A DNA stretch of 64,000 bases. Source: Emiliania huxleyi CCMP1516. Its lineage: Eukaryota. Below the pieces are notes generated by a model. The model did not search any database. It saw only the letters and a program-made list of their open reading frames with translations, and was not told the origin of the DNA. The first letter of the stretch is position 1. Every line of letters begins with the position of its first letter. The position numbers and the translations under genes are program-made. Where the stretch lies: assembly GCF_000372725.1 (NCBI RefSeq), contig NW_005201792.1, positions 41,452 through 105,451 on the forward strand, written 5' to 3'. Shown piece by piece: positions 6,104 through 64,000 of the stretch.

Positions 6104-9100
6104 GTGCTGGGTGGCAGCGGCCACGAAGCCGCCGCCGAGCCCGCATACGACCACGTCGACGGCGAGGCGGAGGCGGACAGAGACGAGCCCACATCGCCAC
6201 GGTCGCCGCGGAAGCGACGCGCCAACGCAGGCCAGAAGCGAGCTAGCTCTTTCTCATTCTCCGACGACTCGCCTACGTCCTCACGCCCCTCCTCGCGTGG
6301 CGCAAAGGCCGGCCGAGCGCGGGGCGGACAGGTGAAGCCAGAGCAGAAGCGGCGGCGGTGTGTGGGGTCCGCCGACCAGTTCGCCTATGGGTGGCAGCCA
6401 CCGCCGCGTCGGGAGCGGGGTTCTCGCTCCCTCGGCGAGCTGGTGGAGGCGGAAGACGCGGCCGCCTTCGCCCTCATATCCGACGCCCCCTCCCCCGCTG
6501 CCGCCGCCGGCGGCGGCGGCTATGCCGAAGGCGGGGCGGCACCGCACGGGCGGCCGGCGGCGGAGAAGTCGGAGCTCGACCTCAAGGCGGACGCCGAGGC
6601 GCGCGCTGCCGCCGACTCGCTCCGCGAGGAGGCCGTCGAGGAGCTCGACCTCGAGTGGGACGAGTCGCGCCGCGCGATGCTCAAGATTCTGCAGGAGATG
6701 TGCTCGCCTCGCCACCTCTCCTTCTCGCGGCCGTTCCTGTCGCCGAGCGAGGCTGCGGCGGCCTCGCCGCCGCTGCTCACGCTGCTGCACGTGCGCGACC
6801 GCTTGCTCGCCGGCGAGCTCGGCGACATCTTCGCCTTTGCGTGCGCGGTCCGGCACGTCTTTGCCTCGTGCTACCTCGCGCACGGAAGCCCTCTCAACGG
6901 GGGCGCTGTCGCGAGAAAGTGCGAGCGGCTCGACCTCGTCTTCGAGCAGGCGAACCTCGGCGAACCTCGGCGAACCTCGTCGTCGAACCTCGGCGAACCT
7001 CCGAACCTCGTCGAACCTCGGCGAACCTCGGCGAACCTCGGCGAACCTCGGCGAACCTCGGCGAACCTCGGCGGTTGAGCCTCTCTCCTCGAGCAGGTCG
7101 TGCTGACGCTGCCAAGGCAGGTTCGCGCCCGCGCCTCCGCCGTCGACGCGGACTGCATCGTGCTCGGGCTGCCGCCGCCTGCGCACTCGGACGGAGGCGG
7201 CGGCGACGAGGACGGCTGCGATGCGGAGGGGAGACGCCGCTCCTCGCGCGCTCGCATCGAGACGCAGCCGCCGAACACCCTCGCGCTTGTCGAGGCGGAA
7301 AAGGCGCGGGAGTCGCCGGGAGCCGGGAGTCGCCAAGGTTTGACCAAGAGTCGCTGAGATGGTTGCACTTGGCGCAAGGCGCGGCAGCGCGCGGCGGCCG
7401 ACGCGGAGCGGCGCGCGGTGCGCGAGCGGCAGCGCGCGCTGGCGGAGAGTTGGGTCGCATCGCTCGACGCGGCGGCGATCAGCGAGGCCCGTCTTCACCG
7501 GGGCGACACGTCCAGGACACGTCCAGTGTCTGTCCGTGACCCGTCCAGCACCCGTCCCTACAGGTGCGCTCGTCCGCCGATTGCGTCGCCGCCGGCCAGT
7601 TCCTTGCCTCGTTTGGCGACCACCTCGGCTTGCCGCCCTTCTGTTTGCCTGAGCTCGAGGTGCGCGAGATTCGCCGAGATTCGCCCGAGTTTCGCACGAG
7701 ATTCGCACGAGATTCGCACGAGATCGAGGCTGGTCTCGTTCCCCCCTCGGACTGGTCTCGCCCGCCGCGTCGCGTCCATTCATTCGTCGAGAGCAATGTT
7801 CGCCCCTGCAGGTCGGCCTCGCATGCCTGCCGCGCGTCTCTGCGTACCTGCTGCACGCGTGTGCCGCCCTCCTCCGCCTAGCGCGGCTGCCGCTCTCGCA
7901 CAGCGTCGACGGCGAGATCGAGCCGAGATCGAGCCGAGATCGAGCCGAGATCGAGTTGATCTCGAGAGAGGGCGCAGGTTGACCTACCCACTTGGCGGCG
8001 CGTTCCCCAGGCTCGCGCGCGGCGTCGGTCGAGGAGGTGCTGGCGGGCGCACTCTGCTACTGGGACGGGCAGATGGCACTCGCACGGCGACTCGACGAGT
8101 CGGACGAGGCCATCCCGGAGCAGCTCGAGCCGTACCTCGAGGGGGGGGAGCTGCAGGCGAGATCCGCCGAGAGCCTCCGAGATCCGCCGAGATGAGCTCG
8201 AGGATGGCTCGTGGACTCCCTGCCGACAACGAGCCCACCTCGAGCAACGAGCCAACCTCGAGCTGCAGGCCATCGTCAGCTCGCTCGGGGACGTACGCGA
8301 GGCGGCGCGGACGCTGCGGCGGCGCGAGGGGCGGCGCGGGTTGGCCGAGGCGGGAAGGCACCGTCCGTGAACCTTGTCGGTATCTGCCCCGTAGGCGCGA
8401 GGGGCAGAGCGGGCTCGCCGGTCTGCCGCCGGCGATGCGCGGCGCGCTGCTGCGGACCGCTCTCTGCCGCGCGCGGCGATGAGGTAGCCCCGAGCTTTCT
8501 CTGGAGCCTTGCTGCAGGCGCGCTGCTACACGCCCTCTGCCACGCGGCGCTGCTCGAGCAGCGCTCCATCGTCTCCGAGGCGGCGAGGCAGGAGGGCGCG
8601 AGTGCGGCGGCGCAGGGCGGGGGCCGCGCGCGCTTTCTCGGCCGCGACGCGGCGGGCGCGCACTATTTCCACTTTTCTCCTCTCGAGGAGCGCGTCTACC
8701 GGCTGGTGCCCGATCCGCGGGGCGAGGTGCGAGATCAGCCGCGATGACCGAGATCGCCCGAGATCGGCTGTGCGGGGATGCGGATCGAGAGCTGCTACGG
8801 GGAGACGGCGCGTCCAAGACACGTCCGCGGCACGCCCACGGCGCGCGGCGCAGGCGTCGGTGCTCGAGCGCGCGGCGGTCACCGAGGGGGAGCACATCGA
8901 GGTGGAGGTGGAGGAGGGAGGCGCCGTCCGCGGGGGAGGGGCCTCGTCGGACACGCGACACGTCCATGACATGTCCGAGACACGTCCACAGGCGCCGTCG
9001 AGTGGCGGAGGGCCCTCGTCTCGCGCGTGCTCTCCGGCGGCCGAGGGCGCTTCGTCGCAATCGTGTACCACGCCGACGGAAAGACGCTCGACGAAGAGTT

Positions 9101-10198
9101 TGTCGAGGCCGTGAGACATGCGCCCAGTCTCGGGCCCGGCTGGGGTCCCCTCGGGGCATCTCGGCTCGTCTCGGATAGGTGTTCAGCGAGCGCCAGTGCG
9201 GCAAGGAGTGGCGGCTGCCTCCTAAGGGGCGCGGCAAGGCGGCGGCTCAAAAGGGCGGCGCGGGCGGCGGCGCCAAGGCCAAGGCCGCCCCCCCGCCTCC
9301 AAAGCCTCCGCCCCCAGCCGGCCGACGATCGGCGCGGGGGGAGGCGGCGGCGGCGGCGGCGGCGGAGGTTGTGGCGGCGGCGGAGGCGGCGGCGGCGGAG
9401 GCAGCGGCGGCGGAGGCGGCGGCAGAGACGGCGGCGGCGGCGGCGGACGCCTCGGGCGATGGGGTGACTTTGCAGGCTCCGCCGGCTGCTTCGGCCGCCG
9501 GCCCTTCCTTCTCGCTGGTGGACGTGCCGGCGCTGCTCGCTCGGATCGGGAAGCCCCCCGAGGGGAAGGCGGGCAGAGGGCGCGGCAAGGCGGCGCCCGG
9601 GCGCGACAAGCGCGACGACGCGCTCTACCTCGCACTCGAGCCGGTCGCGGCGGCGCAGGAGGAGGCGGCGGCCGCTAGATGCCGGAGAGACACCTCGTTG
9701 GAGCACTCAGCCACCACCCGTGTCATTCCAGCCGGCGCTCGAGAGGGGGCGCACCATTCCGCCGCCAGCGGCGCTAGTGACTGTACTCGGTAGCCCCCCC
9801 TGTCCCTTCACGCGAGGTGCAGGCATGCGCCCTGCACGATCTCTGGTCTCCGCCGCCGGAAGGTCCGTGTGCTGCTGCTGTAGGCTGCGGCTGCCGCGCA
9901 GCGGTCCTGGTCGGGCGCGGCGCAGCGGCTCAAGAAGGAGGAGGAGGGAGGGGCGGACAGTGGCGCGGTCGTGCAGCTGGGGAGCGCGCGCGAGGTCGAC
10001 ACCTTCGAGAGGCGCATGGTCGCTTGGCTCGAGGGGGCGCGCGACCGGGCGGAGGCCATGGACAGCGAGGCGGCGGGCGAGTCGGCGAGCGCGGATGGCG
10101 CTGGTGTCGGCGCGAAGATCGCCGAGGCGGCGGCGACGAGGATCAGCGGCTGCGGCGGCGATGCGAGCCGAGAGAGCGAGCTCGACGCCGCGCTTTGA
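6104..10198 (+). CDS. Multi-exon bromodomain + DDT/WHIM chromatin protein, BRD10/KIAA2026-like (start uncertain)
   Basis: Bromodomain-like LLHVRDRLLAGE..FACAVRHVFASCY..KCERLDLVFEQ|VVLTLPRQVRAR; DDT-like CVAAGQFLASFGDHLGLPPFCLPELE; WHIM-like FLGRDAAGAHYFHF..EERVYR. Introns e.g. 6950-7096 and 8157-8267. Confidence 0.7.
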
Positions 10199-14964: not shown

Positions 14965-15428
14965 TCAGAAGGCGACGTACGACTTCTTGCTGTAGCCGAG
15001 CTTGTCGAGGTTGGCTATGCACGCAAACTTGATCATGGGCGGCGGGCCGCACCTGCAGGGGTGTCGCGGACGTGTCCTTGAACTGTCTGCCGCCTCTCGG
15101 CTAGCCTCGGCTAGTCTCGGCTAGTCTCGGCTAGTCTCGGCTAGTCTCGGCTAGTCTCTCTCGCATGAGGACGAGTGTGTCGTCGGCGGGAGGGGGCAGG
15201 TGCTCCGAGATCATCTCCTCGGTGATGAAGCCAGACGAGAACTTCCAGCCGGCGGGCGGCCGGTCGAGCGTGTAGTGCACCTGGGCAGGTCAGCCGAGGT
15301 CAGCCGAGGTCAGCCGAGGTCAGCGGAGGTCAGCCGAGGTCAGCCGAGGTCAGCCGAGGTTGCGTGTGCGTGTGCGTGTGCGTGTTGCGCATTCGTGTGT
15401 GTGCGTGTGTGCGTGCGGCGGCGGCGCC

Positions 15429-15498
<70 letters not shown>

Positions 15499-16675
15499 TG
15501 GGCGGCGGTCGGCGGCGTGAGGTGCGAGCCTTGAGGCGCGAGGCGTGCTTCGCGGCGAGCTCGTCGAGCATGTCGCGGACGAGGATGTCGGACTCTGTCT
15601 GGTTGGCGTACAGCAGCGAGATCTGAGTCTTGTCTGACGGGTCTTTGAGGATGGCCGCCATGACCTGCGGCGGCGGCGGCGCGGCTGGGCGTGGAGAGCA
15701 GCTGGGTGTCGTCGCGGCGTCGCGGGGAAGGGCGGGAGGAGGGGAGACAGGAGGAGGAGGAGGAGGGTAGGAGAAGGGGTGTGGGGGAGGAGAGGAGAGG
15801 GGATAGGAGGAGGAGCGGGTTGGGGGCCGTCGCCTGCAGCATGGGCGTGATGCCGGTCCCGCCCGCCATCATCCCCAGCCGCTTGCAGGCCAGCTCCTTG
15901 CTGCCGCTCTTGAACCGGCCGGCCCCGAGGTACTCGTGCATCCCGATCGGCCCTTGGATGTCCATCGTGTCGCCGACCTTGAGCGAGTCCATGTACTGCG
16001 GGCGGGCGAGAGCCGGGCCTCGGGCGGGTCGGGCTGGGGCAAGGCTGGGGAGGGGAGCGGCGCGCGGCAGTGCGCGGCGGCGAGGTTGGTTCCAGTAACG
16101 CTGTAAATTGCGCGTCTTCTGAACCATCAGCACCGAGGGAGCGCGTCCGGACGGTGTGTGTCGAGGAATCGCAGCCCTCTCGCGGGCGCGGGAGCGGGCC
16201 GCGAGAGCGGCAGAAGCTTATCGGAAGTGTCACGCGCCTGTGACATCTTGCCGCCGTCCGGGAAGCGGTCGATCACGCCGCCCTTGTACACCTTGATCAC
16301 CAGGTCGACGTACCCCACCTCGTCGTCCGACGTCGTCGGCGTGTACTTGCGCTCGATCTCCTTCTCCCCGTCCTCGGGGTCGTCGCGGCCGTTCCACTGG
16401 CCGTCGACGACTCCCTTTGGCGCGGGCGCAAAGAGTTTGAAGTGCTTGCCGACGGGTAGGCCGAGCACCGGGGTCGCGTCCGGGAGCACAAAGCGGAACC
16501 GCACCGTGTCGTGCGAGATGTTGGTGCGCTCGCCGAGCGTGACCGTCTGCCGCGACTTGTTGAGGAACTTGGCGCCCCGAGGCTTGCCGCCGCCGCCGCC
16601 GCGCATCGAGACGAGGAAGACAATGGAGAGGATAACGATGACCGCGGCCACGAGGACCGCAGGCTCCATGTCCAT
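14965..16675 (-). CDS. NADH-cytochrome b5 reductase (5 exons)
   Basis: N-terminal TM anchor; SHDTVRFRF, LGLPVGKH, RKYTP, FPDGGKMSQ, MMAGGTGITPMLQ, LLYANQTESDIL, MCGPPPMIKFAC. GC-AG introns. Confidence 0.95.
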
Positions 16676-18939: not shown

Positions 18940-20030
18940 GAGTCAGTCACGTCAGTCAAAGCAGTCGTGGCACGTGGAGCAGTCGCTGCATGCAACGGCG
19001 CCGCCACACGCTCCGGACGACCCCGACAACCGACACACCACGCACAATGGGAGGCTATCGCGCACGATCGGGCATCGCGCCGCAAACAACTCGCCGCACA
19101 GATGGGGGGGGAGGCAGAATCCCACACACACCGGAGCAGCACAGACACCTTACACGTCAGCGCTCGCTCGATGTGGCCGGCGCTCTCCCCTCTTCTATCG
19201 CCTTTTCAACGGCGGCGTGCGGCCACGCGCCGCGCCGAGCCGGTCTCGGCGGGAGACCTCGGAGCCGCACGCGATGCGGGCATGCGCGATGGCTCCGTTG
19301 GCTCCGTGCCTAAGGCAGATCGATTAGGGTGTGAGCTGCGGCAGCCACCGTTTCTGTACCCGCTCGATCACGTGCAGGCCGTCGGAGGCCGCGCTGGATG
19401 GCCCAGGGCCGGCGGCGGTGAAGGCGTCCGTCGATGAAGGGATGTCGTCGAGGGAGCCATCGTCCTACGCAAACGGTGCACCGGTCCAGTTGTCGGAGTT
19501 CGAGATCGCAGTCGACTTGGAGAGTGTGTTCGGCCCGTTGACGAACTCACGGAATGTGAGCGACTTGGTGCACGCTGGGTCGAGCATCATGACTCGCACC
19601 TCATCCTGGGCGAGGAACTCGCCCAGGGACCAGCTGTTGGCGTCGCCGTTTTGATCGAGCTGCATCCACTGCATGGTTTCGTAGTCAAGCGTAAACGCCC
19701 AGGAGTTGGTGCCTGGGTGACTTGCTGATGAGAGCGCCTTCCAGGCGGGTAGTCGTGCCCCTCACCTACGGTCATACGGCGGCGTCAGAGGGGGGGAAGG
19801 GGCGCGAAGCGTGAACATGGAGGCAAGCAGGTTGGTTTCTGCACCTGGCCAAAGCCGGCGACCTCGAAGTTGTCGTAGCTTGTGCGGGTATCGCTGAGCG
19901 TGAGAGGGACCGGATCGGCAGCAGCATGGGCGGCCGCGTCAGCGGCCGGAGAGGCCGGAGAGCCATCCGACGGAGGCCGGTCGTGCATCGGCGCGTCAGC
20001 CGCAGGGGCCGGGGGGGCGGCGGCATCCAT
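18940..20030 (-). pseudogene. Orphan gene fragment with internal stop, partly duplicated at 4727-5092
   Basis: MQWMQLDQNG...WTGAPFA*DDGSLDDIPSS has a stop where the other copy reads through. Confidence 0.45.
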
Positions 20031-20280: not shown

Positions 20281-21437
20281 ATGGGCGCCGTGGCGGACGC
20301 CTTCAAGCTCCTCTTCGCGTGCGCCGGCATCTTCGCCAGCTTCTCCTACTTTGCCGTCCTGCAGGAGGACGTCTACAAGAAGGAGTACGGCGGCTCGGAC
20401 AAGGTCAAGGGCGAGAAGTTTGCCTTCACCTTCCTCGCGCTGACGGCCGAGCGCGGCATCAACGCCGCCATCGCGCTGCTGGGGATGGCGGTGCTCGGCG
20501 GCTCGGGCATCAAGATCCCGCACAAGGAGATCTTCAACTCGGGCATCTCGCAGATGCTCGCGATGGCCGCCTCGAACGAGGCGCTGCGGTACGTCTCCTT
20601 TCCGACGCAGGTGCTGGGCAAGTCGTGCAAGATGGTGCCGGTGATGGCGGGCGGCATCCTGCTGGGCGGCAAGTCGTACGACCTCGTCAAGTACCTGCAG
20701 GTCGCGCTCATCACGCTCGGCGTCACCGTCTTCAACTTTGGAGGCAAGAAGAAGGGCGGCGGCGAGGACTCGGCGTACGGCCTGTGGCTCATCGCGGCGT
20801 CGCTGGTGATGGACGCGGTGACGGGCGGGCTGCAGGACAGGGTCAAGGCGTCGACCAAGGCGCTCAACCCCTCCGACCCCAAGGCCAAGCCCACCATGCA
20901 CGAGTCCATGTTTTGGACAAACGCGTCGGGCTGCTTGGTTGCCGCGGCGCTCGGCCTAGCGACAGGTGCGCCACCACTCGGCACCATTAGCGTTTACCGC
21001 CGTACCTGCCACCACTCGCCGCCGCTCGCCGCCGCTCGCCGCCGCTTCCGCCGCCGCCCCGCCGCCGGCAGCAGCGACTGCGGAACGCCGGCCGGTGACG
21101 GGGCGGCGTGTGGGCTGCTATATGTGTGTGTGTATCTGCTAGGCCACCTGACGGAGGGGTTCGCCTTCTGCAGCCGGCACCCGGAGGTGCTGCAGGCGGT
21201 GCTCATCTACTCGCTCGCCTCCGCCGTCGGCCAGAACTTCATCTACTACACCATCACGCAGTTCGGGCCGCTGCTGCTGTCCACGGTCACGGCGTAGTTG
21301 GGAGAGAGAGAGAGGGAGAGGGAGAGAGAGCCGCGACGGCCACGGAGTAGGCGGGAGAGAGCCGAGGCGGGAGAGAGCCGAGGCGTGGTCGAGGTCGAGA
21401 GCGGCGAGAGAGCAGAGAGAGAGAGAGGGGGGGAGGG

Positions 21438-21472
<35 letters not shown>

Positions 21473-21474
21473 GT

Positions 21475-21507
<33 letters not shown>

Positions 21508-22185
21508 ACACACACAGCCGAGACATGGCCTTCGAGCGAGCCTCGCCCTCTCTCTTCCAGGTCACGACGACGCGCAAGATCTTCTCGACCGTCTACTCGG
21601 TGCTGCGAGAGACAGCCGAGATGCAGTCGAGATGCAGCCGAGATGCAGCCGAGATGCAGCCGCGACAGCTGGTCGGGAGGATCGCCGCGCGCTGCTGTGC
21701 GATCTCTCGGACCGGAGACGCGTCCACGCGACGTCCGCGACACATTCGCACCCCGCCAGTCCCTCCTTCCTGTTTGACGAGTCGCACCCCTCCCACCCCA
21801 GGTGCTGCGCAATCCGTCCAACTCGCTCGACGAGATGCAGTGGGTTGGCTGCTACCCTCGCCCTCCCCGCCCTCCCCGGACCCTTCTCGGACCCGTCCTC
21901 GGACCCTCCCTGCAGGCCGGCTGCACCCTCGTCTTCGTGGGTCTTGCCGTCGAGCTGCTCGAGAAGGCGCCTCCCGCCTCCCTCCTCCCTTGGCGCCTCT
22001 CCCTCTCTCTCTCTCTTCTCCGTCTCGCCTCTCCTCGCTTGCCGCCTCTCCCCTCCCTTGCCGCCTCCCTCTCTCTCTCTCCTCTCGGCCCGCCGCTGCG
22101 AATGCGACCCACTCTCCGGTCTCCGCCCCCGTCGCCACAGGCGCTCCCCTCCAAGAAGCCGGCCAAGGACCCGAAGAAGCTCTGA
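20281..22185 (+). CDS. UDP-galactose/nucleotide-sugar transporter (SLC35B1/UAA family)
   Basis: ALRYVSFPTQVLGKSCKMVPVM, MDAVTGGLQD, SAVGQNFIYYTITQFGPL, VTTTRKIFS and a Lys-rich C-terminus. Introns near 20966-21142, 21286-21560, 21600-21801, 21844-21915, 21967-22140. Confidence 0.95.
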
Positions 22186-37022: not shown

Positions 37023-37907
37023 CTACTCGCCCCGCGCAGCCTCGTGCTCCGGCGGCGGCCCTTTCCGACTCCGTCGGCTCCGCCTCCTCCACTGCGGCGG
37101 GGCGGCGCTGCCGCGCCCACTGCCACCACGCGTGCGGCCCCGACCCCTGCCGCTGCCTCCAGCCACCGCGGCGGCGGCTGCCGGGGCCTTGTGCGCCGCC
37201 GCCGCCTTGGCGTCCCACAGCGGGCGGAAGCGCCTCGCGAGCTTCTCCCCCGCGGCGCCCGACTCTGCCAGCTCTGCAAGCAGCGCCAGCCCGTCCGCCC
37301 GGCGGCCGGCACCGTCGCAGGCGCGGAGGGCCGTGTGCACCGCCCGCTCGTCGGGGTCATGGTCGGCGCAGAGGGCGCGGAACACGAGCAGCGCCGGGCG
37401 GACGTAGCCGGCGGCGCTCAGCGCGTTCATCACGGTCGTGTAGCCGATGAGGGAGGGGCGCACCTGTGAACGGGCGGAGCTTGGGGGAAGGGGGGAGGAG
37501 GCAGCCACGGTGGTGCGCGAGGAGCGACGGGCGCACGTGCGCTGCTCGCATCCGGCGCAGCAGTCGGAGTGCCGCGCGTGCGGCGGGTCGACCACCCGCG
37601 CGGCGGCAGGCGGCGATAGCGGTGTGAAAGGAGATTGCGTCTGGTGCTGCGGCCTCGTCGAGGAGGGCGAGTGCGTCGCGCCACGCGCCGCCAGCCTCGC
37701 AGGCGGCGAGGGCGCAGTTGGTCGAGACGGTGTTTGGTGACAGGCCCTCGTCGCGCGCGTCCTGCAGGAGCGAGCTTGGCGGGGGTCGTCAGGGGAGGGA
37801 GAGGGAGGAGGTAGCAGGAGGCGGCGAGAGAAAGAGAGGGAGAGAGGGAGAAGGAGGGAGAGAGAGAGAGAGAAAGAGAGGGAGAGAGAGAGAGGGAGAG
37901 AGAGAGG

Positions 37908-37958
<51 letters not shown>

Positions 37959-37989
37959 AGGGAGGGAGAGAGAGAGAGAGAGAGGGAGG

Positions 37990-38043
<54 letters not shown>

Positions 38044-39128
38044 GAGAGAGAGAGAGAGATGGGGAGAGAGAGAGATGGGGAGAGAGAGATGGGGAGATCG
38101 TCCTGCAGCATCGACGCGGCGATCGGCCAGTGCGCTGGCGTCGCGCACGCACGCATCACCGCGTGGTAGTGCACGAGGCCTGGCCGAGGCACAGCCGGGA
38201 TAGGGCCGAGATACAGCCGAGAGCCAGCCGAGACACAGCCGAGACGCAGCCGAGATGCAGCCGAGAGATGGAGCGCGCGAGGCCTGGCCGCAGCCCCTCC
38301 GACCGCATCCGCTCGAGCAGCCTCAGCGCCTCATCCGGCTGCCCTCCTAATCTCGGGGCGATCTCGGGTCACCTCGGGCGAGTCTCGAGGAGCCACACCG
38401 CCTCCTCCCCCCTCCCCGCCTCTCTCGCACGCGGAGAGAGCCGCTCCGTAGCTGTGTGCGTCCGGCGTGTTGCGCGGCGGAGGCACCTAGCTAGCGGCGA
38501 GGCAGGTGCGGCGGCGGGAAGAAGAGAGGCGGGGAGAAGTGCGCGGCGCCGGCGGCACCCGCTCCGCCATCTCGCCGAGCAGCCGCAGCGCCGTCCGCCA
38601 CTCGCCGCAGCGCGAGCAGGCGGCGATGGCGGTGTTGTAGCTGATTCGGTCGGGCGGCGCGCTGGGCGAGGCCTCCATCTCGGACAGCAGGAGGAGGGCC
38701 TCGTCCGACTGGCCGCCGCGCTCGCACGCCGCGAGCGCCGCGTTCAGCGCGACGGTGTCGGGCTCGATGCCCTCGTCGCGCGCGTCCTGCAGCAGCGAGA
38801 GAGCCACCGGCCAGTGCGTCGCCGTCGCGCACGCCCGGATCGCCGCCGTGTAGCCGATCAGGCTGGGCGGCAGCGAGGAGGCCTGCAGCGTCTGGAAGGT
38901 GTCGAGCGCCCGCGCCGGCCTACCCAGTGCACCGTGCGCCCGGATCGCCTCGACGTATACGGCGGCGTTGTGGGTGCGGTTGCCCAGGGCAGCAGTGGCA
39001 GTGGCAAAGATCTGCAACGCCGCCGCCCAGTCGCCGCGGCGGTTGTGTGCGGACATCTCGCGGGCCGCGGCGGCGCCCCGGGACGAAACGCGGCCGCCAC
39101 CACGGGCCCGGGGGGCCGCTGGGGACAT
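37023..39128 (-). CDS. Pentatricopeptide-repeat (PPR) protein, multi-exon (3' end uncertain)
   Basis: PSLIGYTAAIRAC, PDTVALNAALAAC, PDRISYNTAIAAC, PSLIGYTTVMNAL. Confidence 0.9.
37825..38097. repeat. (AG)n microsatellite inside a PPR intron
   Basis: Direct observation. Confidence 0.95.
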
Positions 39129-39354: not shown

Positions 39355-39995
39355 CTGAGGGAGGGTGTAGAGGATGTAGAGTGTAGAGCGCTGTAGAGCT
39401 GTAGAGATACAGCACACAACACCCTATAACTGCGTCATGACCAGCCTGCCATGTGTCGCCGGTGCCGCATTCGTCGCTGTGCTTCTTTAGCAGGCGGTGG
39501 ACTGTCGGCTGCGAGGACGGTCGCATTTGCGCGAGGCGAGGCGAGCATTCAGACGCGTTGCATGCGCCATGACTCGCGCCAGCGCGTGCGGGAGCTCCTG
39601 GCTGAGCGTTGAGTCCAAGCGAGTTGCGCTGGCCACTATCGCTACGCCGAGCCGAGCTGACGCGCCGAGGCGCCGGCCAGTCGCAGCCGTGAGGCATGCC
39701 ATAGCAGCAGAGGCACCTGCCACCCATTGGGCGGGTAGACAGAAGGCCAGGGCAGCACTGGCAAGTGCAACGCGCCTCATGTCGGAGAGCGACCGTGCCT
39801 CGTTCGCCGCTTATGATGTAGAGTTTGTTGTAGAGATTTCACGTTGTAGAGCGCCTCTACATCGCTCTACAACGCAGGCGCCTCGTCCCGCGGCGGATGT
39901 AGAGCTCTACAGCTCTACAGCGCTCTACAGCGCTCTACATCTCTACAGCTCTAGTACAGCGCTCTACACTCTACATCCTCTACACCCTCCCTCAG
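39355..39995. mobile_element. 641-bp MITE, 8-bp TSD (hAT-like)
   Basis: TIR CTGAGGGAGGGTGTAGAGGATGTAGAGTGTAGAGCGCTGTA at both ends; CCTTCTGG duplicated (39347-39354, 39996-40003); TGTAGAG subterminal repeats. Confidence 0.9.
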
Positions 39996-41142: not shown

Positions 41143-43334
41143 ATGTCAGCGGCGCGCGAAGAGGAAGAGGAGGAGGAGCCCGCCTCTCTCCTCCTGCGGC
41201 TCGAGCCCACCGCCTCGCGGCTGGCTGCAATCTGCAGGCTCGACCTCCGCAAGGCTGGCCTCAAGCGCCTTCCCGCCAGCATCGGCCTGTGCGCGACATG
41301 CCTGGAGCAGCTCGATGTGGGAGGCAACCCTCTCGAATCGCTCGACGGCGTGCAGACGCTAGGGCGGCTGCGCGTCCTCTTCGCGACGGGTTGCGCGCTC
41401 GGCGGCCGGGGCCTGCCGGCCGGCGGCCCACTCTCGCGAGTCGACTCGCTCTTCATGCTCTCGCTCAAAGAGAACGGGCTGGCCGTGCTCGACGGCGAGG
41501 CGCTCCCCCCAAAGCTGGGCTGGCTCATCTGTGCGCAGAATGCGATCGCCGAGGTGCGGGCTCCGCACCGACTGAGCCACGTGCGCAAGCTCATGCTTCC
41601 GCACAACCTCCTCGACGCGGTGGCGGCCGACTTACTCATTGAGGCGATCCCTGCGCTCGAGATGCTGCGCCTCGCCTGCAACCGCATGGAGACCCTCCCC
41701 GCCGCCGCCTTTCGCCACCCGCGGCTGGCATGGTTCGCGTTCGGAGGCAACCCGTACTCTGCCCGCCTGTGCGCTGCCGCCCTCTCCGCCGCCGACGCAG
41801 CCGCCGACGCGGTGGCGACTCTGAAGGACGCCTCGGAGGCGGGCAGAGAGGTAGATCAGATCGAGAGGCAGAGCGGCGAAGCACTGTCAGCCACAGCTGG
41901 GCAGCAGGCGGTATGGGGGTGGACGCTAGGCGAGGCGGAGAGACGGCCACACTGGAGCGACACAGACACACAGGACAGGACACACCTACCGGCGGGACTG
42001 TCACACCTCCCGAGTCTACGTCGCAGGTGGCTGTGGGGGAGGAGGAGCTGGGCCGCGGCTCGGGCGCGGTGGTCAAGCGCGGGACGTGGCAGGGTACGCC
42101 GGTCGCCTGCAAGCTGGGGCGGGCAGGTCTCTCACCACACCGCCGCCCGCACCCCTCCCACCTTTTTTTGAAGGTCGCCTGCAAGCTGTGGTCGGCGGAG
42201 CTGTTTTCGGACGGCGACGCGCGCGGCGAGTGGCTCATGGGGCGACTGACCGGCGGCTGCGCCAGCCTCGTCCGCACGCTCGCGGCGTGGGAGACGCCGT
42301 CGCTCGGCATGGCGGTCGAGCTGCTCGAAGGCAGAGCCGAGATCAGCCGAGATGGCCCGAGATGGCCCGAGAGATGGCCCGAGAGATGGCCCGAGAGAGT
42401 TGCGGGTGCGGAGCACCAGTAGGCGCTCCCGCAACACTCTCGCCCCCACTCCCCCAGCCTCGGCGGTGGGCGGCCCGCCGCACGTCCAATGACATGCATG
42501 TCCCCAGGCGCCTCTGCGGTGGGCGGCCCGCCGTCCTTCGCGTCGGTGACGCGCGACGCGTTCGTCGAGGGGAAGCACGCCCGCCTCACACCGGCACAGG
42601 CGCGAGGCGTCCTTGGGCCCTCGTCTGCGCGGCGCAGTGTCCGCGACACGACACGTGCCATGTGTGTCCACGACGGCCCCGCGGCCGTGCCTTGCAGGCG
42701 AGAGAAGTTGCGCGTGCCGTCGCTCGCGCTGGGGCGTGGCTGCACGCGCGCGGACTCGCGCACTGCGATATCTACTTGCACAACACGCTTCGCGTCGCGG
42801 AGACGGAGGCCCCCCCACACCGCGCCGAGAGGTAGCCGAGATCCAGCCGACCGACTGGCAGATCGTGGCCAACATGGGTCTGCGTGGCTTGGTGGTGGGG
42901 GCGGGGCGGCAATCGAGAGGGGCGCACCTCGGGCGCGTCCCAGCTGTACGGGCCCGTGGATATCTAGCCGACATCTAGCCGAGACATGGCCTGTCGACGT
43001 CGGCCGTTGTTCGGCCGCGTGCCTCGGCGTCCAGGCGTGGTCTGACCGTGCTTTCACTTCTCTCTTCTGTCTGCAGGTCGTGAAGCTGTCGGACCTCGGC
43101 GCCGCGTGCGCGTACGACCGGCACGGCCACACCGCCGTCGAGAAGCTCGAGGTGCGCTCGTTCGGCCTGCTGCTGCTCGACCTCCTCTCGCACCTGCAGG
43201 TCTCGCACGACGGAACCTTTGGCGGCGGCGAGGCGGCGGCGGCGGCGGCGGCGCTCCGACACGCGGCGGCTGCGTGCACAGCCGAGTCGCTCGAGGCCCG
43301 CCCGTCTTTTGCGGAGCTGTGCGCCGAGCTCTAA
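41143..43334 (+). CDS. LRR-containing Ser/Thr protein kinase
   Basis: LRRs (LEQLDVGGNPLESL, LFMLSLKENGL, LEMLRLACNRM); kinase LGRGSGAVV, VACKLW, FSDGDARGE, LHARGLAHCDIYLHN, VKLSDLGAA, RPSFAEL. Confidence 0.9.
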
Positions 43335-52432: not shown

Positions 52433-53838
52433 TCACGCCGCGAGGGCAGCAAAGCCCGCCTCGAAGCCGTCCTTGACTGCCTGCGGGACGGGGTGGCGGG
52501 CACGTAGCACGAAGCGCGGTGAGGGGAGACGGTCTACCACCCGGACAGCGGCGGGGCAGCCCTCGCGTCCCACGTCGCATCTCCACGTCCCAAGACAGGC
52601 GGGCGCTGCGCCGCATCAGGTGCAAGAGAGAGTCTCTCTCTCTCTCTCAGGTGCACGGCCTCGAAGCGCTCGAGCTGCGCCGCGCTGGCCGGGCCGACCA
52701 GAGAGCCGAACCGCACGGCGCGCGGCGCCACAGTGTGCACGTGGCCAGAGCGGGGCCGGCGCGCGCGTGTGAGCGAGACCTGCGAGACGGGCTGCTTCCC
52801 CAGGTAGACACCGAAGAGAGCGAGGCACAACCCTTTGCCGCCGACGGTCTGCCCCGGCGCAGCCGCGTCCGACACGTACAGCGAGTCCGCCTTGCACGTG
52901 AGGTACCTGCGTCAGGAGCACACCAGAGCACTCAGAGCGGCACACACCATGAGGCTACGAATACAGCTGGAGACAGCCGAACACGGCTCAATGCAGCCGA
53001 ATACAGCTTGCCCGGGTGCCTGCTCGAGTGCACGAGAGCCCGTATCCCGCATCTAGGGACGAGCACAGCTGCGCGCCACGCGCGACCGACTCTCCGAGCA
53101 CAGCCTTGAGCGCCGCCTGAAAGAAGAGCTCTGGAGTGAGACAGAAGGGCGGGCACCCCCGCCGCCGCCTCTGGAGCGCGCCTCGAAGCGCTCCACCAGC
53201 GGCTTGCTCACGCCCTTGAGCGCCTGAAGGGAGGGTTCCGAGAGGGGTCCGGGAAGAGGGGTCCGCTCGCCCAAGCGGCTAGCTCACGTCGCTGTCGAGC
53301 GCGTCGCGGAGGGCGTCGACGACCGCCTTCCCGCCCACGGACCGGTGGAACCGGAGCAGCAGCGTCTTGGCGGTGCGGCTGCCGCTCACCGCGTCAAACA
53401 GCGCCTGGCCACGCTTGCCGCTCCGCTTCAGCGTCGCCACGCCGCCACTGTCGAGGTACACCCCCACCGCGTACACCTGCGGCGCGGAGCGGCCGCTGAG
53501 CCTCGGCGGTTGCAGCCGCTCAAGCGCGCCGCCCGGGCCGGGGTCGCACCTTGACTGCGCCGTACTTGTAGCGCGTGCCTCCGCCCATGAGCTGCTGCGT
53601 CGCGCCAGCCGTACGCAGCGACTGCGGGAAGGCGAGGCCGTCGATGACCAGCTCACCAGCCGCACCGCCGCCGCCGAGGGAAGACGCTACGGCGATCGCG
53701 GCGATGGCGGCCGCGCAGACAAGGAGGCCCGTCGACGCGCCCGTCCTAGGCGCGGGGAGGGGGTGTGGTGTGAGGGCTCGGGCTTTGCGAAGCTGCGGTC
53801 CTTCTTACTCGCGCGGCGATGTTACATGAGCTGCTCAT
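52433..53838 (-). CDS. Chalcone-isomerase-like fold protein (start uncertain)
   Basis: GLAFPQSL..LMGGGTRYKYGAVK|VYAVGVY, LLRFHRSVGGKAVVDAL, LCLALFGVYLGKQPVSQ|AVKDGF. Confidence 0.8.
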
Positions 53839-54087: not shown

Positions 54088-55236
54088 TTGAACGCTGTCC
54101 TCTCGGTCTACCCGTCACTACGCGACACCGTCGCACTGCGGGGCATGCCCCTGTCCCCGGTGGCAGGGGAAGAAACAGTGCCGATGCTGCAGCACTTTGC
54201 GCAGCACTACAATGACATCAGCCAACGGCGTGGGCCGGGCGATGTCGCGCGCATCTACGCGGTGCAGGCACAAGACAAGGAGTTTGGCCTCTGCCACACG
54301 TACGAGCTTGGCCGCTTCTGTCCGTCCATGCTGCCGTCGGCGCAGCGCATCCCGCCTATTGGCGACCTCTTCACGCAGCAGAGCACCTCTCCAGTCCCGA
54401 AACAGGGCACGCTCGCTGCTGTCGGGGCCCATGAAGCGTGGATCGCGTGCCTGGGAGGCGGCGTGCGAGGAGGTCGACAAAAACATGCCGCAGTCGGAGG
54501 CGATCAAGTTCAGGGACGCAACTCGCTTCATCTCGATCTCCCAGTTCGGCGCCGCTGGATGGCTCGACATGCGCCCTGATGGACTCCACCACACGAAGAT
54601 GGTGTCGGCGATGTTCCTGACGGCGATACAGCGCAGGCACGGGCTCTACTTGTCGGTGATTGCGCCCACTCTCGTCGAGAAGGCTGCCGCGGGCGAGCAC
54701 GTCACGGTGGGAGAGTACAAGGGCGACTTCCTCGCCAACTCCAACAAGGGCGACCGCACCTCCAAGCACAACGGGGTGCTAAGGGCCGCCCAGAATGCCA
54801 TCCGGGCGCGCTCGGTTGGCAGCATCATCCTCGGGGAGAAGGAAAAGCCCGAGGTGACGCGGCACCTCAACGACACGTCCGTGACTGACATCTGCGAGAT
54901 CGGCGGCGACTTCGCCACGATGCGGGACGTGCACTACGAGGTCAAGTGCTGGAACTCGCTCACCAAGTCGACGACGGCGGGGAGGGGCTCGTGGGACAAT
55001 GGTGGCAATGTGGCGTCGGTGGGCCACCTCTACGGGTTTGGAAACACGCTGGACAAGGCGTTGACGGGACGGGAGTCGTGGGGTGCAAGGAGCGTGGCCG
55101 TCAGGTGGACGGACCGCTCGACCACTCGACTGGAAAGGGATGGGTCAAAGACCACGCGTATGGAAAGGGGTGGGTCAAGACGGATACGGGCTGGAAGTGG
55201 ATGGGAGCGCAGTACTACGACGCGAAGTGGGTCAAG
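54088..55236 (+). mobile_element. Frameshifted fragment of a non-LTR retrotransposon with restriction-like endonuclease (CRE-like)
   Basis: GAAGWLDMRP..FLTAIQRRHGL, GDFLAN..RTSKHNGVLR and E..TD..DVHYEVK match the post-RT/RLE region. Two frameshifts; no RT core. Confidence 0.7.
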
Positions 55237-56880
55237 AAACCGCACTTATCTCGGGTGTGCAAGCCCACACCGGCTCGCGATGCCACGGAGAGGGCTCGAC
55301 GCTTGAGATTGGACCCCATCCGCGGCGATTGCGAGGGCATTCCGGAGGTCATTATCGGCGCTACCGACCGCGATATGTCCCGTCCCGCAGCCCTCATGCA
55401 CCAGGGCCATGGGTTCAGTCATAACATGTAGGCCTTCTCTCCCACAGTTTTGAGCAATCGCCGCAAACATGCGCTTCTTGCGCACTTGCTATCGCGACAC
55501 GGTCACACGCGGACTCTCCAGCCTCGCAGCTCACCACCTCGCCTTCTCTGTCGCTCTCCTGGCCCAGGCCCATCGGTAGCAGTCCTGGGGTGTCTGAAAC
55601 CGCACTTATCTCGGGTGTGCAAGCCCACACCGGCTCGCGATATGCCACGGAGTCAGAGGGCTCGACGCTTGAGATTGGACCCCATCCGCGGCGATTGCGA
55701 GCTTAGGGGACCCCTAGGGTTCTGAGGGCCGGACTTTTTAAGACCTTTTAAGAATTCTTAAGATACAAGCCTCTCTCACAGCACACTGGCACGACAAGGG
55801 CGCGGACTGGCGCGGACTGGCACACACACCGGCTCACGAGGAGGTTTGGGGGCTTAACTTGCCATTTAAGAGATTGCAGGCACGGGGGTCCCTCTTTTAA
55901 GACCGTTCAAGAAAATCGACACATCTGTAAGTCTGGTGCACTGGCAGGAGCCATACTCGCATAGGGGACGCGTGCTAGCTGACTGTAGCCAGCTTCCCGG
56001 CCTACGGCGTCTACCGGGAGAGCTCCTGCGGCTCCTCCCGTGGACCATCCATCGACCTCGGGAGCTCTCCCGCACCGTTTAAGCGTTTAAGACCGTTTAA
56101 GGAATCGGCGGCCCAGGCAGCCTTAAAAAGGCCCGGGCCCGTTTTAAGCCGTTTAAGCCGCAGGCGCCCCAGGGCCCACCCTTTTAAGCCTAGGGGTCCC
56201 CTAAGATTGCGAGGGCATTCCGGAGGTCATTATCGGCGCTACCGACCGCGATATGTCCCGTCCCGCAGCCCTCATGCACCAGGGCCATGGGTTCAGTCAT
56301 AACATGTAGGCCTTCTCTCCCACAGTTTTGAGCAATCGCCGCAAACATGCGCTTCTTGCGCACTTGCTATCGCGACACGGTCACACGCGGACTCTCCAGC
56401 CTCGCAGCTCACCACCTCGCCTTCTCTGTCGCTCTCCTGGCCCAGGCCCATCGGTAGCAGTCCTGGGGTGTCTGAAACCGCACTTATCTCGGGTGTGCAA
56501 GCCCACACCGGCTCGCGATGCCACGGAGAGGGCTCGACGCTTGAGATTGGACCCCATCCGCGGCGATTGCGAGGGCATTCCGGAGGTCACTATCGGCGCT
56601 ACCGACCGCGATATGTCCCGTCCCGCAGCCCTCATGCACCAGGGCCATGGGTTCAGTCATAACATGTAGGCCTTCTCTCCCACAGTTTTGAGCAATCGCC
56701 GCAAACATGCGCTTCTTGCGCACTGGTGCGGCACATCGCCGCGCGACACACGGTCACACGTCACACGCGGACTCTCCAGCCTCTCAGCTCACCACCTCGC
56801 CTTCTCTGTCGCTCTCCTGTAGCAAGCCTGAGAGGTGTCTGAAACCGCACTTATCTCGGGTCTTCAAGCCCACACCGGCT
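55236..56880 (+). repeat. ~360-bp tandem repeat, about 3 units
   Basis: GAAACCGCACTTATCTCGGG at 55236, 55596, 56474 and 56841. The second unit is split by a MITE. Confidence 0.9.
55702..56205. mobile_element. 504-bp MITE, 8-bp TSD (hAT-like)
   Basis: Perfect 17-bp TIR CTTAGGGGACCCCTAGG; TSD ATTGCGAG. Neighbouring repeat units show the empty site. Confidence 0.95.
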
Positions 56881-57967
56881 CATAACGATCCACATACGGG
56901 CTCTCACACACGCACATTACAGATCACATACGCCACCGAGCCCGCCGCCCGGACGCGCGGGTACGCCGCGCCGCGCGTGCCGTCGCCGTCGAGCGAGCGC
57001 CATGGTGCCGGTCGTCGCCGCGCGCGAGCAAGCGCGAGCAAGCGCGGCGCTCCTTCTGCTGCAGGCGCGGCGGGCAGTGCCCGCTGCGACGCCTCGCAAG
57101 CTGAGCCTCGGCGGCGTCGAGGTCGATCGCGCTCGCTCCCGCGGGCGCGGCGGTCGCCACCGATCCGGACGCGGTCATGGCGGCCCTCGTGGCCGGCACG
57201 CACGCCGCAGTGCGCGCACCAGCCACGCTCAGAGCAATGCGGCGGCCATTGGGCGAGAGCGACGAGTGCCCTTCCTGGGGCTGTGGCGGTGCGAGCGGGG
57301 CGTAGCGAGGCACCTCGGCCCCCGGGCGATCGAGTCGGTCGAGCAGGGCAGCGGAGAGCGACCGCGGGCGTCGTGGCGGACCTGCGTGGTGGTCGCCGGC
57401 CACGATGAGCGGTCTTGCGAAGGGGCGGATTAGGCGCCCTCGCGGGGCGGTCCCTGGGACGCCCACGGCCGACCTGGCGCGGCGCATACCCCGGGCTGGA
57501 TGTGTATGGGCGGTGGGGGTCCTTTGTTTGGTCACCTTTAGGCCGCAAACACCCGCACGGAGGTGCACGTCATGTGATGTGGGGTTTAGAGCCAGGCTAT
57601 AAACCCCACATCTTGACTGCGAGTGAAGATCCACAGTACCTGGAGCGAAAAAAAAGCAAGCGAGCTCTGTTGCGCGCGCGCGCCGCTTCTTTCCGATCAG
57701 TTGATCGGGGTCGCAAAAGCGCATGCCGAGCACCGCCTCAAGAATCTTGTAGCAGAATGTCGGTCTAAGGCGCTGGACATTCCTTCGGTGGACACCCCAT
57801 GTGCACTGCACAGCCGCACAGGAAAACTCGACATACGACAAAAAACCGCCGCGGTCTGTGCGTATGTATGGCAAGATCCAAGGATCACTCGCCGCTCGGA
57901 ACCTCGGACGCCCCGGGGAGAATCACAAAGAGACAATGTAGGACCTAGGACGCCGAGCCACGCCAAC

Positions 57968-59575
57968 TCACGCGCACGACGGGTCTTCGAATTCGGCGAT
58001 GAGGCCGCGCCGCCGCTTGTGGCCAATGTACAACCCGCGGTCCTGCGGCGGGATGCGCGTGCCGCAGAACCATTGACTAGCGTGCTCGCGGAAGCAGCGG
58101 CGGAGCGGGCGCAGCAGCGCGTCGCGCAGCCGCCCCTGCGAGAAGGTGAGGCCGCGCTCCTCGGAGAGGTGGTCGTCCCGCACCTAATCTCGGACGAGCT
58201 CGGGTCATCTCGGGAGGAGCCTCGCTCCTCGTAGAGGTGGCCGCCCCGCACGTCGAGCCGCGACAGGGCGCCGTCGAGGTCGATCAGCTGCTGCATCAGC
58301 CGGCCCGACTCGGCCGTCCACCCGCCGTGCCTAATCTCGGGTGATCTCGGGTGATCTCGGGCTGATCTCGGGTGCCCGACTCGGCCGTCCTCCAGCCGCC
58401 GCGCCGCAGCAGCGACGCGGAGCAGCGCGAGATGTGGCGCGCGAGCGGGGCCTCTATGGCGGGGTGCAGCACCACCGCCGAGCGGAAGGCGGCGAGGCCG
58501 GCGGCGGAGAGAGTTGGCGTGTGCTGCACGTCCGGCAGCTCCGAGCCTCGCTGCGCTGCCACGCGGCGCGTGAGGGCGCCGGTGCTGCCCGCGACCTCGG
58601 CCAGCCAGCGCGAGTAGGTTTGGAAGCCAGCGAGCAGTCGGCCCAGCAGCGCCTCGTCTGCAGCCGCCTCCTCGCCGTCGCTGCCGCCAGGAACCGAGGC
58701 GGAGGAGGAGGCGGAGGAGGAGGCGGAGGCGGAGGCGGAGGTGGAGGCGGAGGCGGAGGCGGAGGCGGAGGCGGAGGCGGAGGTGGGCGGGAGGCGCCCG
58801 TATGCGACCGGATGGATGGTTGCCCCGAGCGTCTCTGCGCACTCGAGCTGCAGCAGCTGCAGGCAGCGATAGACCAGCTCCCAGTCGCGCCCCGTCAGAA
58901 TACCTACAGGAGAGGCCATTTCCAGGCTCCTAGACCTCTCCTTGAGCAGGCTCCCCGTCTCGCGGCCACTCGGATGCCCGCGAGCTTGCGCGCTTGCCCC
59001 CCGCGGCCGTCGGGAGCCTCGGGCCGCCTCTCCCCACAAGCCGGCTGCAGCAGCAGCTCGAGCCGGTCCCACCCCTTTTGCAGGTCGAGCCACCGCCGGA
59101 GGGGGAGCGAGCGGACGCCCCACGCGTACTGCCAGAAGGCGAGATACCGTGGCGGCGGCGGAGAGAGCGACCCAGCGCCGCACGGCCGGCGAGGTGGTCG
59201 GCCGGAGAAGCGCGGGTCCGCCGCGCGCAGCGCGTGCCACAGCGCGTCGCTCGAGGCGGCGCTGTGCCACTCGCGGCCAACGGCGCGGGCGACGCAGAGG
59301 TCGGCGGCGGAGTGGTGCGCGAGCACTGCGAGGAGGATGTCGCCGGGCCACTGCCACTCCCATCCCGCGCTCGCCTCGGTCGCCGATTCCAGAGCCACAG
59401 CCGCGTCGTCGCATGGAGCAGGAGATGCTGCTCTCGATGCGCCCTCGTCGCTGACACTGAGGGCATCAAGATCCGCATGCCAGTCGCGTGCGGGTGCGGG
59501 CGGTTGGTCCTCGCTTGGCAGCTGGTCCGAAGACCAGCGCCAGCCCGGAAAGGCCATCGCGAGGCCGCGCGACAT
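57968..59575 (-). CDS. F-box protein
   Basis: WPGDILLAVLAHHSAADLCVARAVGREWHSAASSDALW. Introns include 58331-58404 and 58184-58251. Confidence 0.8.
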
Positions 59576-59676
59576 GCAGTCGCCTGGCCTGCAACAGCGG
59601 AAGTTTGTTTCTTTTTTCTCCCCCGCACCCTGCTCCCGCTACTCCACACACATCGCGCCGGCTGCCAGGTAGGTGT

Positions 59677-63216: not shown

Positions 63217-64000
63217 ATGTTGAGCGTGTGTGCGCAGTGTGCGCTAATCCCTTCTGGCACGCCGGAGCGAGTGTGGGCAATCGGCGACCTGCATGGCGAC
63301 GTCGGCTGCGCCCTACATTGGGTGGAGCGCACGGGGCTGCTGCGGAATGCATCGTTGCCAGCGGCGGAGTGGGAGTGGACAGAGCCGTCGAGCCAGCTGG
63401 TGTTCTTGGGCGACTACATCGACCGGGGACCGGACTCGAAAGCCGTACTCACCCTGGTGCGAGAGCTAACTTTGCGCTTCCCTGAGCACGTGCATGCTCT
63501 CCTCGGAAACCACGAGCTGAACCTCCTTCTCGACCGGGCGAGGAGCCCCAGCGGCGGCCGCTACCTCGAGTACGCCTACGCCGCTGCTCACCCGGCGCAG
63601 TACGAGGCGTGGCTGCCCGAGGGTGAGCGGACAGAGGACCTTGACGGGGTGCTGCGCTCGCTCCACGATGCGCTGCTCTCCGTCTACAGACGCGGCCTGC
63701 ATGCCCAGGGCGTGCCGATGGCGCCCGACGGCCCGTCCCAAGGACCTTGCAGGAGCCTTCTGGGAGCCTTCCTACAGGCGTGCAGATGGTGCCCGACGGC
63801 CCGTCCTCGATCGTCGAGTTCGTGCGCCCCAAGGCCGCGCGCCCGCGCGTTGCAGACGCCCTCCGCCGTTGGCAGCGTGCATACATGCGCGGCGTGAGCA
63901 GCGACTCCCCCCTCGGCGAGTTCCTGCACCGGCCTCTCTCCGTCCACCTGGCAGGCGGCTTGCGCGGCGGGCGGTCGCAACGGGGATGAGCCGAGATGAG
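63217..64000 (+). CDS. Calcineurin-like metallophosphoesterase (Shewanella-like phosphatase type), partial
   Basis: GDLHGD, GDYIDRG and GNHE motifs. Intron 63710-63777; runs off the window. Confidence 0.9.

What the first reader, a model, noticed from the sequence alone, without database searches (positions are those of the whole stretch)
6950..63777. Introns across many genes are bounded by duplications of adjacent exon sequence: candidate intron-generating mechanism
Seen: in most multi-exon genes here, some inferred introns either begin with a diverged copy of the next exon or carry the same sequence across both junctions. Examples: 6950-7096 (TCGAGCAG|G twice); 8157-8267 (GAGCTGCAG|GC twice); 17776-17937(-) (GCGCGGCTGCT vs exon GCACGGCTCGCT); 38180-38283(-) (CGGCCAG|GCCTCG twice); 42102-42173 (GTCGCCTGCAAGCTG twice); 45710-45840 (GCGAAGTAC vs GTCGAAGAC); 52481-52779(-) (CCCGTCTCGCAG vs CCCGTCCCGCAG); plus the clusters reported separately. 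The GT/GC donor is often just the first two bases of the duplicated exon. Established: intron gain by tandem duplication or staggered-break repair is a proposed but rarely observed route. Inference: a recurrent process makes introns from local duplication plus filler. That could explain the many GC donors, and the range of divergence suggests different ages. The intron bodies are not homologous, unlike classic introners.
Basis: partly seen in the sequence, partly recalled or inferred. Interest (0 to 1): 0.9.

Follow-up and report, generated by a model that had tools for sequence, protein, structure and literature searches.

The report
Alga introns born from exon duplications
In this stretch of coccolithophore (Emiliania huxleyi) DNA, about a third of the modelled introns begin with a decayed copy, up to about 35 bases long, of the exon that follows them, likely the scar of insertions that created new introns of about 72 bases, which would make this alga a testable model of how introns arise.

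Summary
The pattern is real but one-sided. The window is Emiliania (Gephyrocapsa) huxleyi DNA. Of 19 introns fixed by transcript-type proteins, 9 begin with a diverged copy of the next exon (permutation p 5e-5); none ends with a copy of the previous exon. With 32 hand-modelled introns the counts are 18 and 5 of 51. Twelve of the 14 strongest are 68-75 nt: a roughly 20-35 nt exon copy supplies the GT/GC donor, and a 35-50 nt tail ends in AG. The tails are not copied from their own flanks, and 5 of 12 match intron tails in other genes. Haptophyte DNA contigs lack all five introns of one test gene. Likely mechanism: insertion of a piece of another intron's 3' end at a widely staggered break, introner-like but with far longer duplications. 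Corrections: the 45710 donor is wrong (45743), copies do not explain GC donors (p 0.77), and bodies share motifs. No RNA reads or close outgroup genomes were seen. Nine literature searches found no description, and three look-ups found no earlier spliceosomal case in this scan.

The parts
58184..58251 (-). 68-nt GT-AG intron, F-box gene; first 33 nt copy the next exon (29/33); tail shared with 58331 and 38347
   Evidence: junction from P0188
58331..58404 (-). 74-nt GC-AG intron, F-box gene; about 31-nt copy of the next exon; shared tail
   Evidence: P0188
58904..58977 (-). 74-nt GC-AG intron, F-box gene; older, diverged copy
   Evidence: P0188; p 0.012
42102..42173 (+). 72-nt GT-AG intron, LRR-kinase gene; 15 nt exact, 20/23 copy of the next exon
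   Evidence: P0140, P0166
42600..42697 (+). 98-nt GC-AG intron, LRR-kinase gene; short diverged copy; the junction could equally be 42607-42704 at protein level
   Evidence: p 0.049
21844..21915 (+). 72-nt GT-AG intron, UDP-galactose transporter gene; 16/19 copy; tail like that of 53224
   Evidence: P0003, P0125
21600..21801 (+). 202-nt GT-AG intron; 8 nt exact copy, then an 11-nt repeat array
21967..22140 (+). 174-nt GC-AG intron; short diverged copy
   Evidence: p 0.037
21286..21560 (+). 275-nt GT-AG intron; 6 nt exact copy, borderline
   Evidence: p 0.062
15281..15529 (-). 249-nt GC-AG intron, cytochrome b5 reductase-type gene; diverged copy, then microsatellites
   Evidence: P0174; p 0.025
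7304..7378 (+). 75-nt GC-AG intron (hand model), DDT-domain gene; copy of the next exon
8322..8394 (+). 73-nt GC-AG intron (hand model); 22/26 copy
8921..8991 (+). 71-nt GC-AG intron (hand model); 24/29 copy; 11-nt repeat tail
38487..38558 (-). 72-nt GT-AG intron (hand model), PPR gene; diverged copy
38347..38419 (-). 73-nt GC-AG intron (hand model), PPR gene; about 35-nt copy; tail shared with the F-box introns 20 kb away
37464..37536 (-). 73-nt GT-AG intron (hand model), PPR gene; 26/33 copy
38180..38283 (-). 104-nt GC-AG intron (hand model); 13-nt repeat spanning both junctions
53224..53302 (-). intron of a chalcone-isomerase-like gene; about 38-nt copy; donor either GC at 53302 (79 nt, nearer to homolog length) or GT at 53287 (64 nt, used in the statistics)
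63710..63777 (+). 68-nt GC-AG intron (hand model), metallophosphoesterase gene; 27/29 copy
6950..7096 (+). 147-nt GC-AG intron (hand model); end copies the previous exon (minor form)
   Evidence: p 0.012
8157..8268 (+). 112-nt GC-AG intron (hand model); end copies the previous exon (minor form)
   Evidence: p 0.025
37762..38102 (-). 341-nt GA-AG intron (hand model); 10-nt repeat across both junctions
52481..52779 (-). 299-nt GT-AG intron; end copies the previous exon (minor form)
39795..39877 (+). candidate 83-nt copy-type intron in an unmodelled gene
   Evidence: model-free scan only

Best explanation
Many short introns here consist of a decayed copy of the next exon's first 20-35 bases followed by a 35-50 base repeat-built tail ending in AG, and they likely arose as insertions at widely staggered breaks in coding DNA. 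Shown: the copy, its one-sidedness, the 68-75 nt size class, and tails that match other genes' intron tails rather than their own flanks. Inferred: repair filled in the stagger, duplicating the target, and captured a piece of another intron's 3' end (branch region plus AG) between the two copies. Where the target began with GT or GC, which this alga accepts as donors, the first copy became the donor and splicing restored the mRNA exactly. Only events of about 65-80 nt with a usable donor would survive. The intron copy then decays neutrally and repeat expansion lengthens older introns. Whether the tail was copied from DNA or reverse-transcribed from intron RNA is untested; DNA-templated repair is my default.
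For: Excess similarity in protein-fixed introns, recovered without gene models. 12 of 14 strong copies sit in 68-75 nt introns, and copy introns are shorter (p 0.017). The acceptor is not from the duplication: exon-end AG in 4 of 14 vs 19 of 27 (p 0.019); AG one intron-length into the downstream coding sequence in 0 of 12. Tails score 7.7 against own flanks vs 7.4 against other flanks, and 5 of 12 score 15-21.5 against another gene's intron tail. Cross-gene tail pairs scoring >=14: 6 of 1138 vs 0.2 per shuffle. Mismatches fall evenly on codon positions (10/9/8, 8 introns). Transporter homologs on L012, L029 (DNA) and L032 (holds its own intron) lack all five introns. Of 26 non-identical homologs that break early, 25 break elsewhere. 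PMC3174169 (passages) found no detectable conservation of E. huxleyi introns with other eukaryotes.
Against: No presence/absence polymorphism: the one other allele seen (L009) has all five introns with the same copies, and copies are about 7-25% diverged, so the events are old. No DNA from close outgroups was seen. The scan kept the best 80 of 227 hits, which favours intronless loci, and L012 looks intron-poor throughout. P0056 (about 70% identical) stops two residues after the 21286 position with the same read-through; I read it as a chimeric contig but did not test that. L032 and L054 have an intron 3 nt upstream of the 21844 intron, which could be sliding. 7 of 12 tails have no strong match in the window. 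The exon-end AG contrast is only p 0.07-0.08 when all 18 copy introns are used. 32 of 51 introns are hand models; two of the five protein-fixed genes were chosen after seeing copies (the other three give 4 of 9). Mis-annotated GC donors could explain the low conservation in PMC3174169.
Confidence: 0.6

Rival explanations
1. Old introns were partly overwritten: a break near the 5' end of an existing intron was repaired on spliced cDNA, ran 20-35 nt into the next exon, then rejoined the old 3' half (an aborted intron loss). No intron was gained.
For: It gives the same geometry and explains a ready-made branch point and AG. An intron lies 3 nt from the 21844 site in L032 and L054, and P0056 breaks at the 21286 site.
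Against: Old introns should keep their exon ends, but AG is rarer before strong copies (4 of 14 vs 19 of 27). The mirror form should be about as common (0 of 19 vs 9 of 19). It does not predict the 68-75 nt class. Positions 276 and 289 are intron-free in L012, L029 and L032.
Confidence: 0.2
2. A decayed family of true introner transposons carrying the 3' splice site and taking the donor from a target-site duplication, as in Symbiodinium, but with a long cut stagger.
For: Same splice-site logic; near-identical tails in the F-box and PPR introns; the 10-11 nt motif occurs in both orientations; narrow size class.
Against: Copy lengths vary (about 8-38 nt) instead of being fixed. At least four tail types. 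Shared stretches of 12 nt or more are few (10 pairs vs 4.6 expected, maximum 10). No end-to-end identical bodies, and no copy-plus-tail insertion seen antisense or between genes.
Confidence: 0.12
3. Plain tandem duplication of an exon segment holding AG|GY, with one copy becoming the intron and later decaying.
For: Fits the minority with repeats across both junctions or at the intron end: 38180, 37762, 6950, 8157, 52481.
Against: For the main class the upstream exon usually lacks AG, the tail resembles neither flank, and 0 of 12 have AG one intron-length downstream.
Confidence: 0.05
4. Chance matches in 65% GC DNA, donor-consensus resemblance, or assembly error.
Against: Cross-paired and within-gene nulls control for this. 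An independent metagenome contig holds the same introns. The copies are diverged, and transcript-type proteins skip them.
Confidence: 0.03

Closest known systems
Introners whose target-site duplication supplies the donor (Symbiodinium, Polarella, Aureococcus; 10.1101/2022.06.06.494994 and 10.1101/2020.10.14.339549, passages)
   Same: The inserted piece carries the 3' splice site; the first copy of the duplicated target is the 5' splice site; GC and GA donors are used.
   Different: Duplications named in those passages are fixed per family at 3-8 nt; here they vary and reach about 35 nt. Bodies share only tails and motifs, and no terminal inverted repeats were shown.
Daphnia pulex new introns from staggered double-strand-break repair (PMC4202315, passages)
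   Same: [quoted passage not shown]
   Different: Daphnia repeats are 4-12 bp and the introns AT-rich (78%); here the copies are 3-5 times longer, GC-rich, one-sided, in a 68-75 nt class, with tails shared between genes.
[quoted passage not shown]
   Same: Donor and acceptor surroundings resemble each other; may apply to the five minor-form introns.
   Different: Needs AG|GY inside the duplicate and an intron made only of exon copy; not met in the main class.
E. huxleyi GC-AG introns (PMC4028052, passages and text of supplements 1 and 6)
   Same: GC donors 56-65% there, 29 of 51 here; frequent retention. The legend of Fig. S9 notes a 9-base junction repeat at another locus.
   Different: That paper treats the repeat as a mapping ambiguity and ascribes GC donors to base composition; the passages read mention no exon copies or origin.

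Membership tests
Introner (transposon-derived intron family) | Many introns homologous along their whole length | tested here: not met
   Only tails and short motifs are shared among 51 introns; one window only
Introner | One splice site recruited from a target-site duplication, the other carried by the insert | tested here: met
Introner | Fixed short duplication length (3-8 nt in the passages read) | tested here: not met
   copies of about 8-38 nt
Introner | Terminal inverted repeats or an autonomous partner element | not tested
   the 10-11 nt motif occurs in both orientations; no genome was available to search
Introner | Presence/absence polymorphism, or absence in close relatives | tested here: inconclusive
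   present in L009; absent in distant haptophyte contigs
Staggered-break repair introns (Daphnia type) | Direct repeat of the adjacent exon's terminal bases at the opposite intron end | tested here: met
Staggered-break repair introns (Daphnia type) | Shown to be gains by intron-free alleles and outgroups | tested here: inconclusive
   one gene, distant relatives only
Tandem-duplication introns | AG|GY inside the duplicate; intron made wholly of flanking exon copy | tested here: not met
   main class; possibly met for 5 minor-form introns
Spliced spliceosomal intron | Removed from mRNA at the stated G[TCA]...AG junction | tested here: inconclusive
   19 junctions match transcript-type proteins; no RNA reads seen; 42600 ambiguous by 7 nt; 32 are hand models

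The most novel reading that the evidence does not exclude
E. huxleyi propagated introns through RNA: a retroelement reverse transcriptase primed at nicks in coding DNA copied the free AG-ended 3' tails of excised introns and left 20-35 nt target duplications whose first bases became the donor. This would be an intron-making route needing no transposon body, and it could account for a third or more of this alga's introns.
Probability: 0.2. Interest if true: 0.9.

Novelty: new variant of a known kind. Interest (0 to 1): 0.72.

Why it matters
How new spliceosomal introns arise is still open; clear footprints are known mainly from introner families and a few dozen Daphnia gains with 4-12 bp repeats. 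If the window is typical, a well-sequenced alga holds thousands of introns with a much longer, datable footprint. The copy gives each intron an internal clock and keeps ancestral exon sequence. Strain and sister-species genomes could test gain against overwrite directly. The repeats also make junctions slide, a practical source of wrong gene models in this species.

Tried and rejected
No whole genome is held, so there is no genome-wide count. RNA reads were not examined; junctions rest on proteins. JGI gene models P0159, P0164 and P0226 were not used as confirmation because they are predictions that skip GC donors. Cluster look-ups gave spliced proteins for the b5 reductase, F-box and TIR-named genes but only read-throughs or nothing for the PPR, ankyrin-like, OPT, DDT and phosphoesterase genes. 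A tail motif found nothing in viral contigs. The model-free scan of 30 metagenome loci (194 kb, mostly intron-poor) gave one hit, seen in two loci, so nothing follows for other haptophytes. The OPT gene (0 of 7), the TIR-named gene (0 of 2) and the EF-hand-like gene (0 of 1; its two other introns were left out as undecidable) show no copies. Rejected: copies as the cause of GC donors (p 0.77); tails templated from local flanks; a protein-coding role for the copy (mismatches even across codon positions). The E. huxleyi genome paper was not held; that it reports 10-11 bp intron repeats near junctions is recalled only. PMC2784329 (passages) had nothing relevant. Three look-ups of earlier findings gave only self-splicing, tRNA and Maverick intron cases, none used.
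Full report
Identity. The transporter gene at 20281-22185 matches a cluster holding Emiliania huxleyi CCMP1516 and MMETSP proteins. The 65% GC and GC donors agree with PMC4028052 (passages). No genome is held and no RNA reads were seen, so everything rests on this window, on proteins and on 80 metagenome loci.

Fixing junctions. Spliced alignment of full-length proteins fixed 19 introns in five genes: UDP-galactose transporter (5; P0003, P0125), LRR kinase (5; P0140, P0166), cytochrome b5 reductase type (4; P0174), F-box (3; P0188) and a gene named TIR-domain by UniRef (2; P0210) (Pfam labels, none for P0210 or P0164). That these proteins come from spliced RNA is inferred from MMETSP labels or contig sizes of 1.3-1.7 kb. 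One junction is ambiguous: the aligner chose 42607-42704 and I used 42600-42697, which gives the same protein. Another 32 introns in seven genes are hand models that give stop-free frames; two EF-hand-like introns were left out.

Is it more than chance? Junction-anchored alignment scores, skipping the two splice bases, were compared with introns paired to other introns' exons and with same-phase sites in the same gene. Intron start vs next exon: mean 5.84 vs 1.12, 9 of 19 above the null's 95th percentile, p 5e-5 in the fixed set; 8 of 32 in the hand set; 18 of 51 at within-gene p<=0.05. I chose the transporter and kinase genes after seeing copies; the other three genes give 4 of 9. Two scans without gene models found the same loci: 8 of 11 diverged repeats at lag 66-76 are these introns, and the donor-acceptor scan gave 9 loci at lag 60-90 against 6, 2, 2 and 0 hits in control ranges, leaving out one satellite.

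Anatomy. Twelve of the 14 strongest cases (score >=7) are 68-75 nt long; the other two are 202 and 249 nt and full of repeats. The best copies run 23-33 nt at 79-93% identity, with mismatches spread evenly over codon positions (10/9/8). The next exon starts with GT or GC in 17 of 18 copy introns. The upstream exon ends in AG in 4 of 14 strong cases vs 19 of 27 introns scoring under 3 (p 0.019; p 0.078 for all 18 vs 33). In the 12 short strong cases the last 36 nt match their own flanks no better than other flanks (7.7 vs 7.4), none has AG one intron-length downstream, and 5 match another gene's intron tail at 15-21.5. Two F-box introns and one PPR intron 20 kb away end almost identically. Whole-body sharing is modest: 27 pairs share an 11-mer vs 12.9 expected, and the 10-, 12- and 13-mer counts lie within the shuffle range; the longest shared stretch is 21 nt. 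GC donors are equally common with and without a copy (11 of 18 vs 18 of 33). At 53224 the copy starts 15 nt before the GT donor I modelled. Homologs have 15 residues over this stretch, against 14 with a GC donor at 53302 and 19 with the GT donor, so the copy may keep a codon that the exon lost (inference).

Gain or overwrite? One scan returned 80 of 227 transporter loci. L009, nearly identical to the window, has all five introns with the same copies. L012 and L029 are genomic, with neighbouring genes on both strands. L012 groups with a Phaeocystis protein (94/65) and L029 with a Prymnesium paralogue (100/100); both are uninterrupted. L032 has one intron of its own, 3 nt upstream of the 21844 site, with no copy; L054 has an acceptor at the same place. 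Among 120 homologs, 26 non-identical ones break early at about a dozen other positions; only P0056 breaks at a window position. Its last 30 residues equal the E. huxleyi sequence, so it may be chimeric, which I did not test. P0129 breaks at the first, non-copy intron. The ranking favours intronless hits and no close outgroup was seen, so gain is likely but not shown. PMC3174169 (passages) reports no detectable conservation of E. huxleyi introns, subject to annotation error. The kinase's nearest named non-haptophyte relatives are bacterial (38-39%), which suggests that its introns postdate a gene transfer.

Mechanism. The layout, target copy then insert ending in AG then target, is what an insertion at a staggered break leaves. 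The donor comes from the first copy and the acceptor from the insert, so splicing is exact. Tails shared between genes point to other introns' 3' ends as the source. The size class may be the spliceosome's lower limit acting on short insertions: 9 of 33 other introns are 65-77 nt and only one is shorter. I put this at 0.6, cDNA overwrite of old introns at 0.2, a decayed introner family at 0.12, plain tandem duplication at 0.05 and artefact at 0.03. RNA-templated insertion would place AG at the junction by itself and is the boldest reading (0.2).

Known or new. The splice-site logic is that of introners (passages of 10.1101/2022.06.06.494994, 10.1101/2020.10.14.339549 and PMC12130899; the first and third do not mention Emiliania in their main text; their species tables were not seen and may bear on this). 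The repeat footprint is that of Daphnia new introns (4-12 bp; PMC4202315, passages). 10.1101/051292 (first part of the text) looked for such boundary similarity in a mite and found none beyond the proto-splice site. PMC3488318, PMC2891723 and PMC11347168 were read as passages. Nine searches found no report of long exon copies at E. huxleyi intron starts; the library lacks the genome paper. It works like an introner or a break-repair intron but fails the introner tests of whole-length homology and fixed short duplication: a new variant of a known kind.

Noticed in passing
window 22540-26653 and 28481-32593: A 4.1-kb direct duplication at 99.9% identity beside the 100-N gap, each copy with a long ORF and one intron; recent duplication, mobile element or assembly redundancy. 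L009 leaves the window's sequence near 22535 and resumes in sequence like the end of this unit, so that allele may lack most of it.
   Followed up: no
window 41143-43334: LRR-kinase gene whose nearest named relatives outside haptophytes are Methylobacterium proteins (38-39%); possible gene transfer from bacteria.
   Followed up: partly
window 42331-42507: This intron holds an internal copy of about 22 nt of the next exon some 40 nt before its end, not at its start.
   Followed up: no
window 52481-52779 (-): The intron contains short stretches resembling upstream exons of the same gene.
   Followed up: no
window 45374-45439 and 37762-38102: GA donors; the first is fixed by three transcript-type proteins.
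   Followed up: partly
window 6569-6660: In-frame 69-nt diverged repeat inside the first exon of the DDT-domain gene; may be a duplication that did not become an intron.
   Followed up: no
window 27749-27994: AT-rich 13/27-nt satellite unlike the rest of the window.
   Followed up: no
window 55236-56881: Several copies of a 300-420 nt repeat downstream of a 400-codon ORF (54092-55306) with no Pfam match.
   Followed up: partly
window 4727-5065 and 19229-19603; 2179-2739 and 33223-33774: Dispersed repeats; the first was joined to the DDT-domain gene in JGI model P0164, probably a wrong model.
   Followed up: no
L029 dynein-like ORF 3-3653 (-): An apparent in-frame intron of about 78 nt with a GC donor and no exon copy in another haptophyte.
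   Followed up: no
P0004 and P0129: Proteins identical to the window's transporter over the first 185 residues or so and different after that: chimeric transcripts or a converted paralogue.
   Followed up: no
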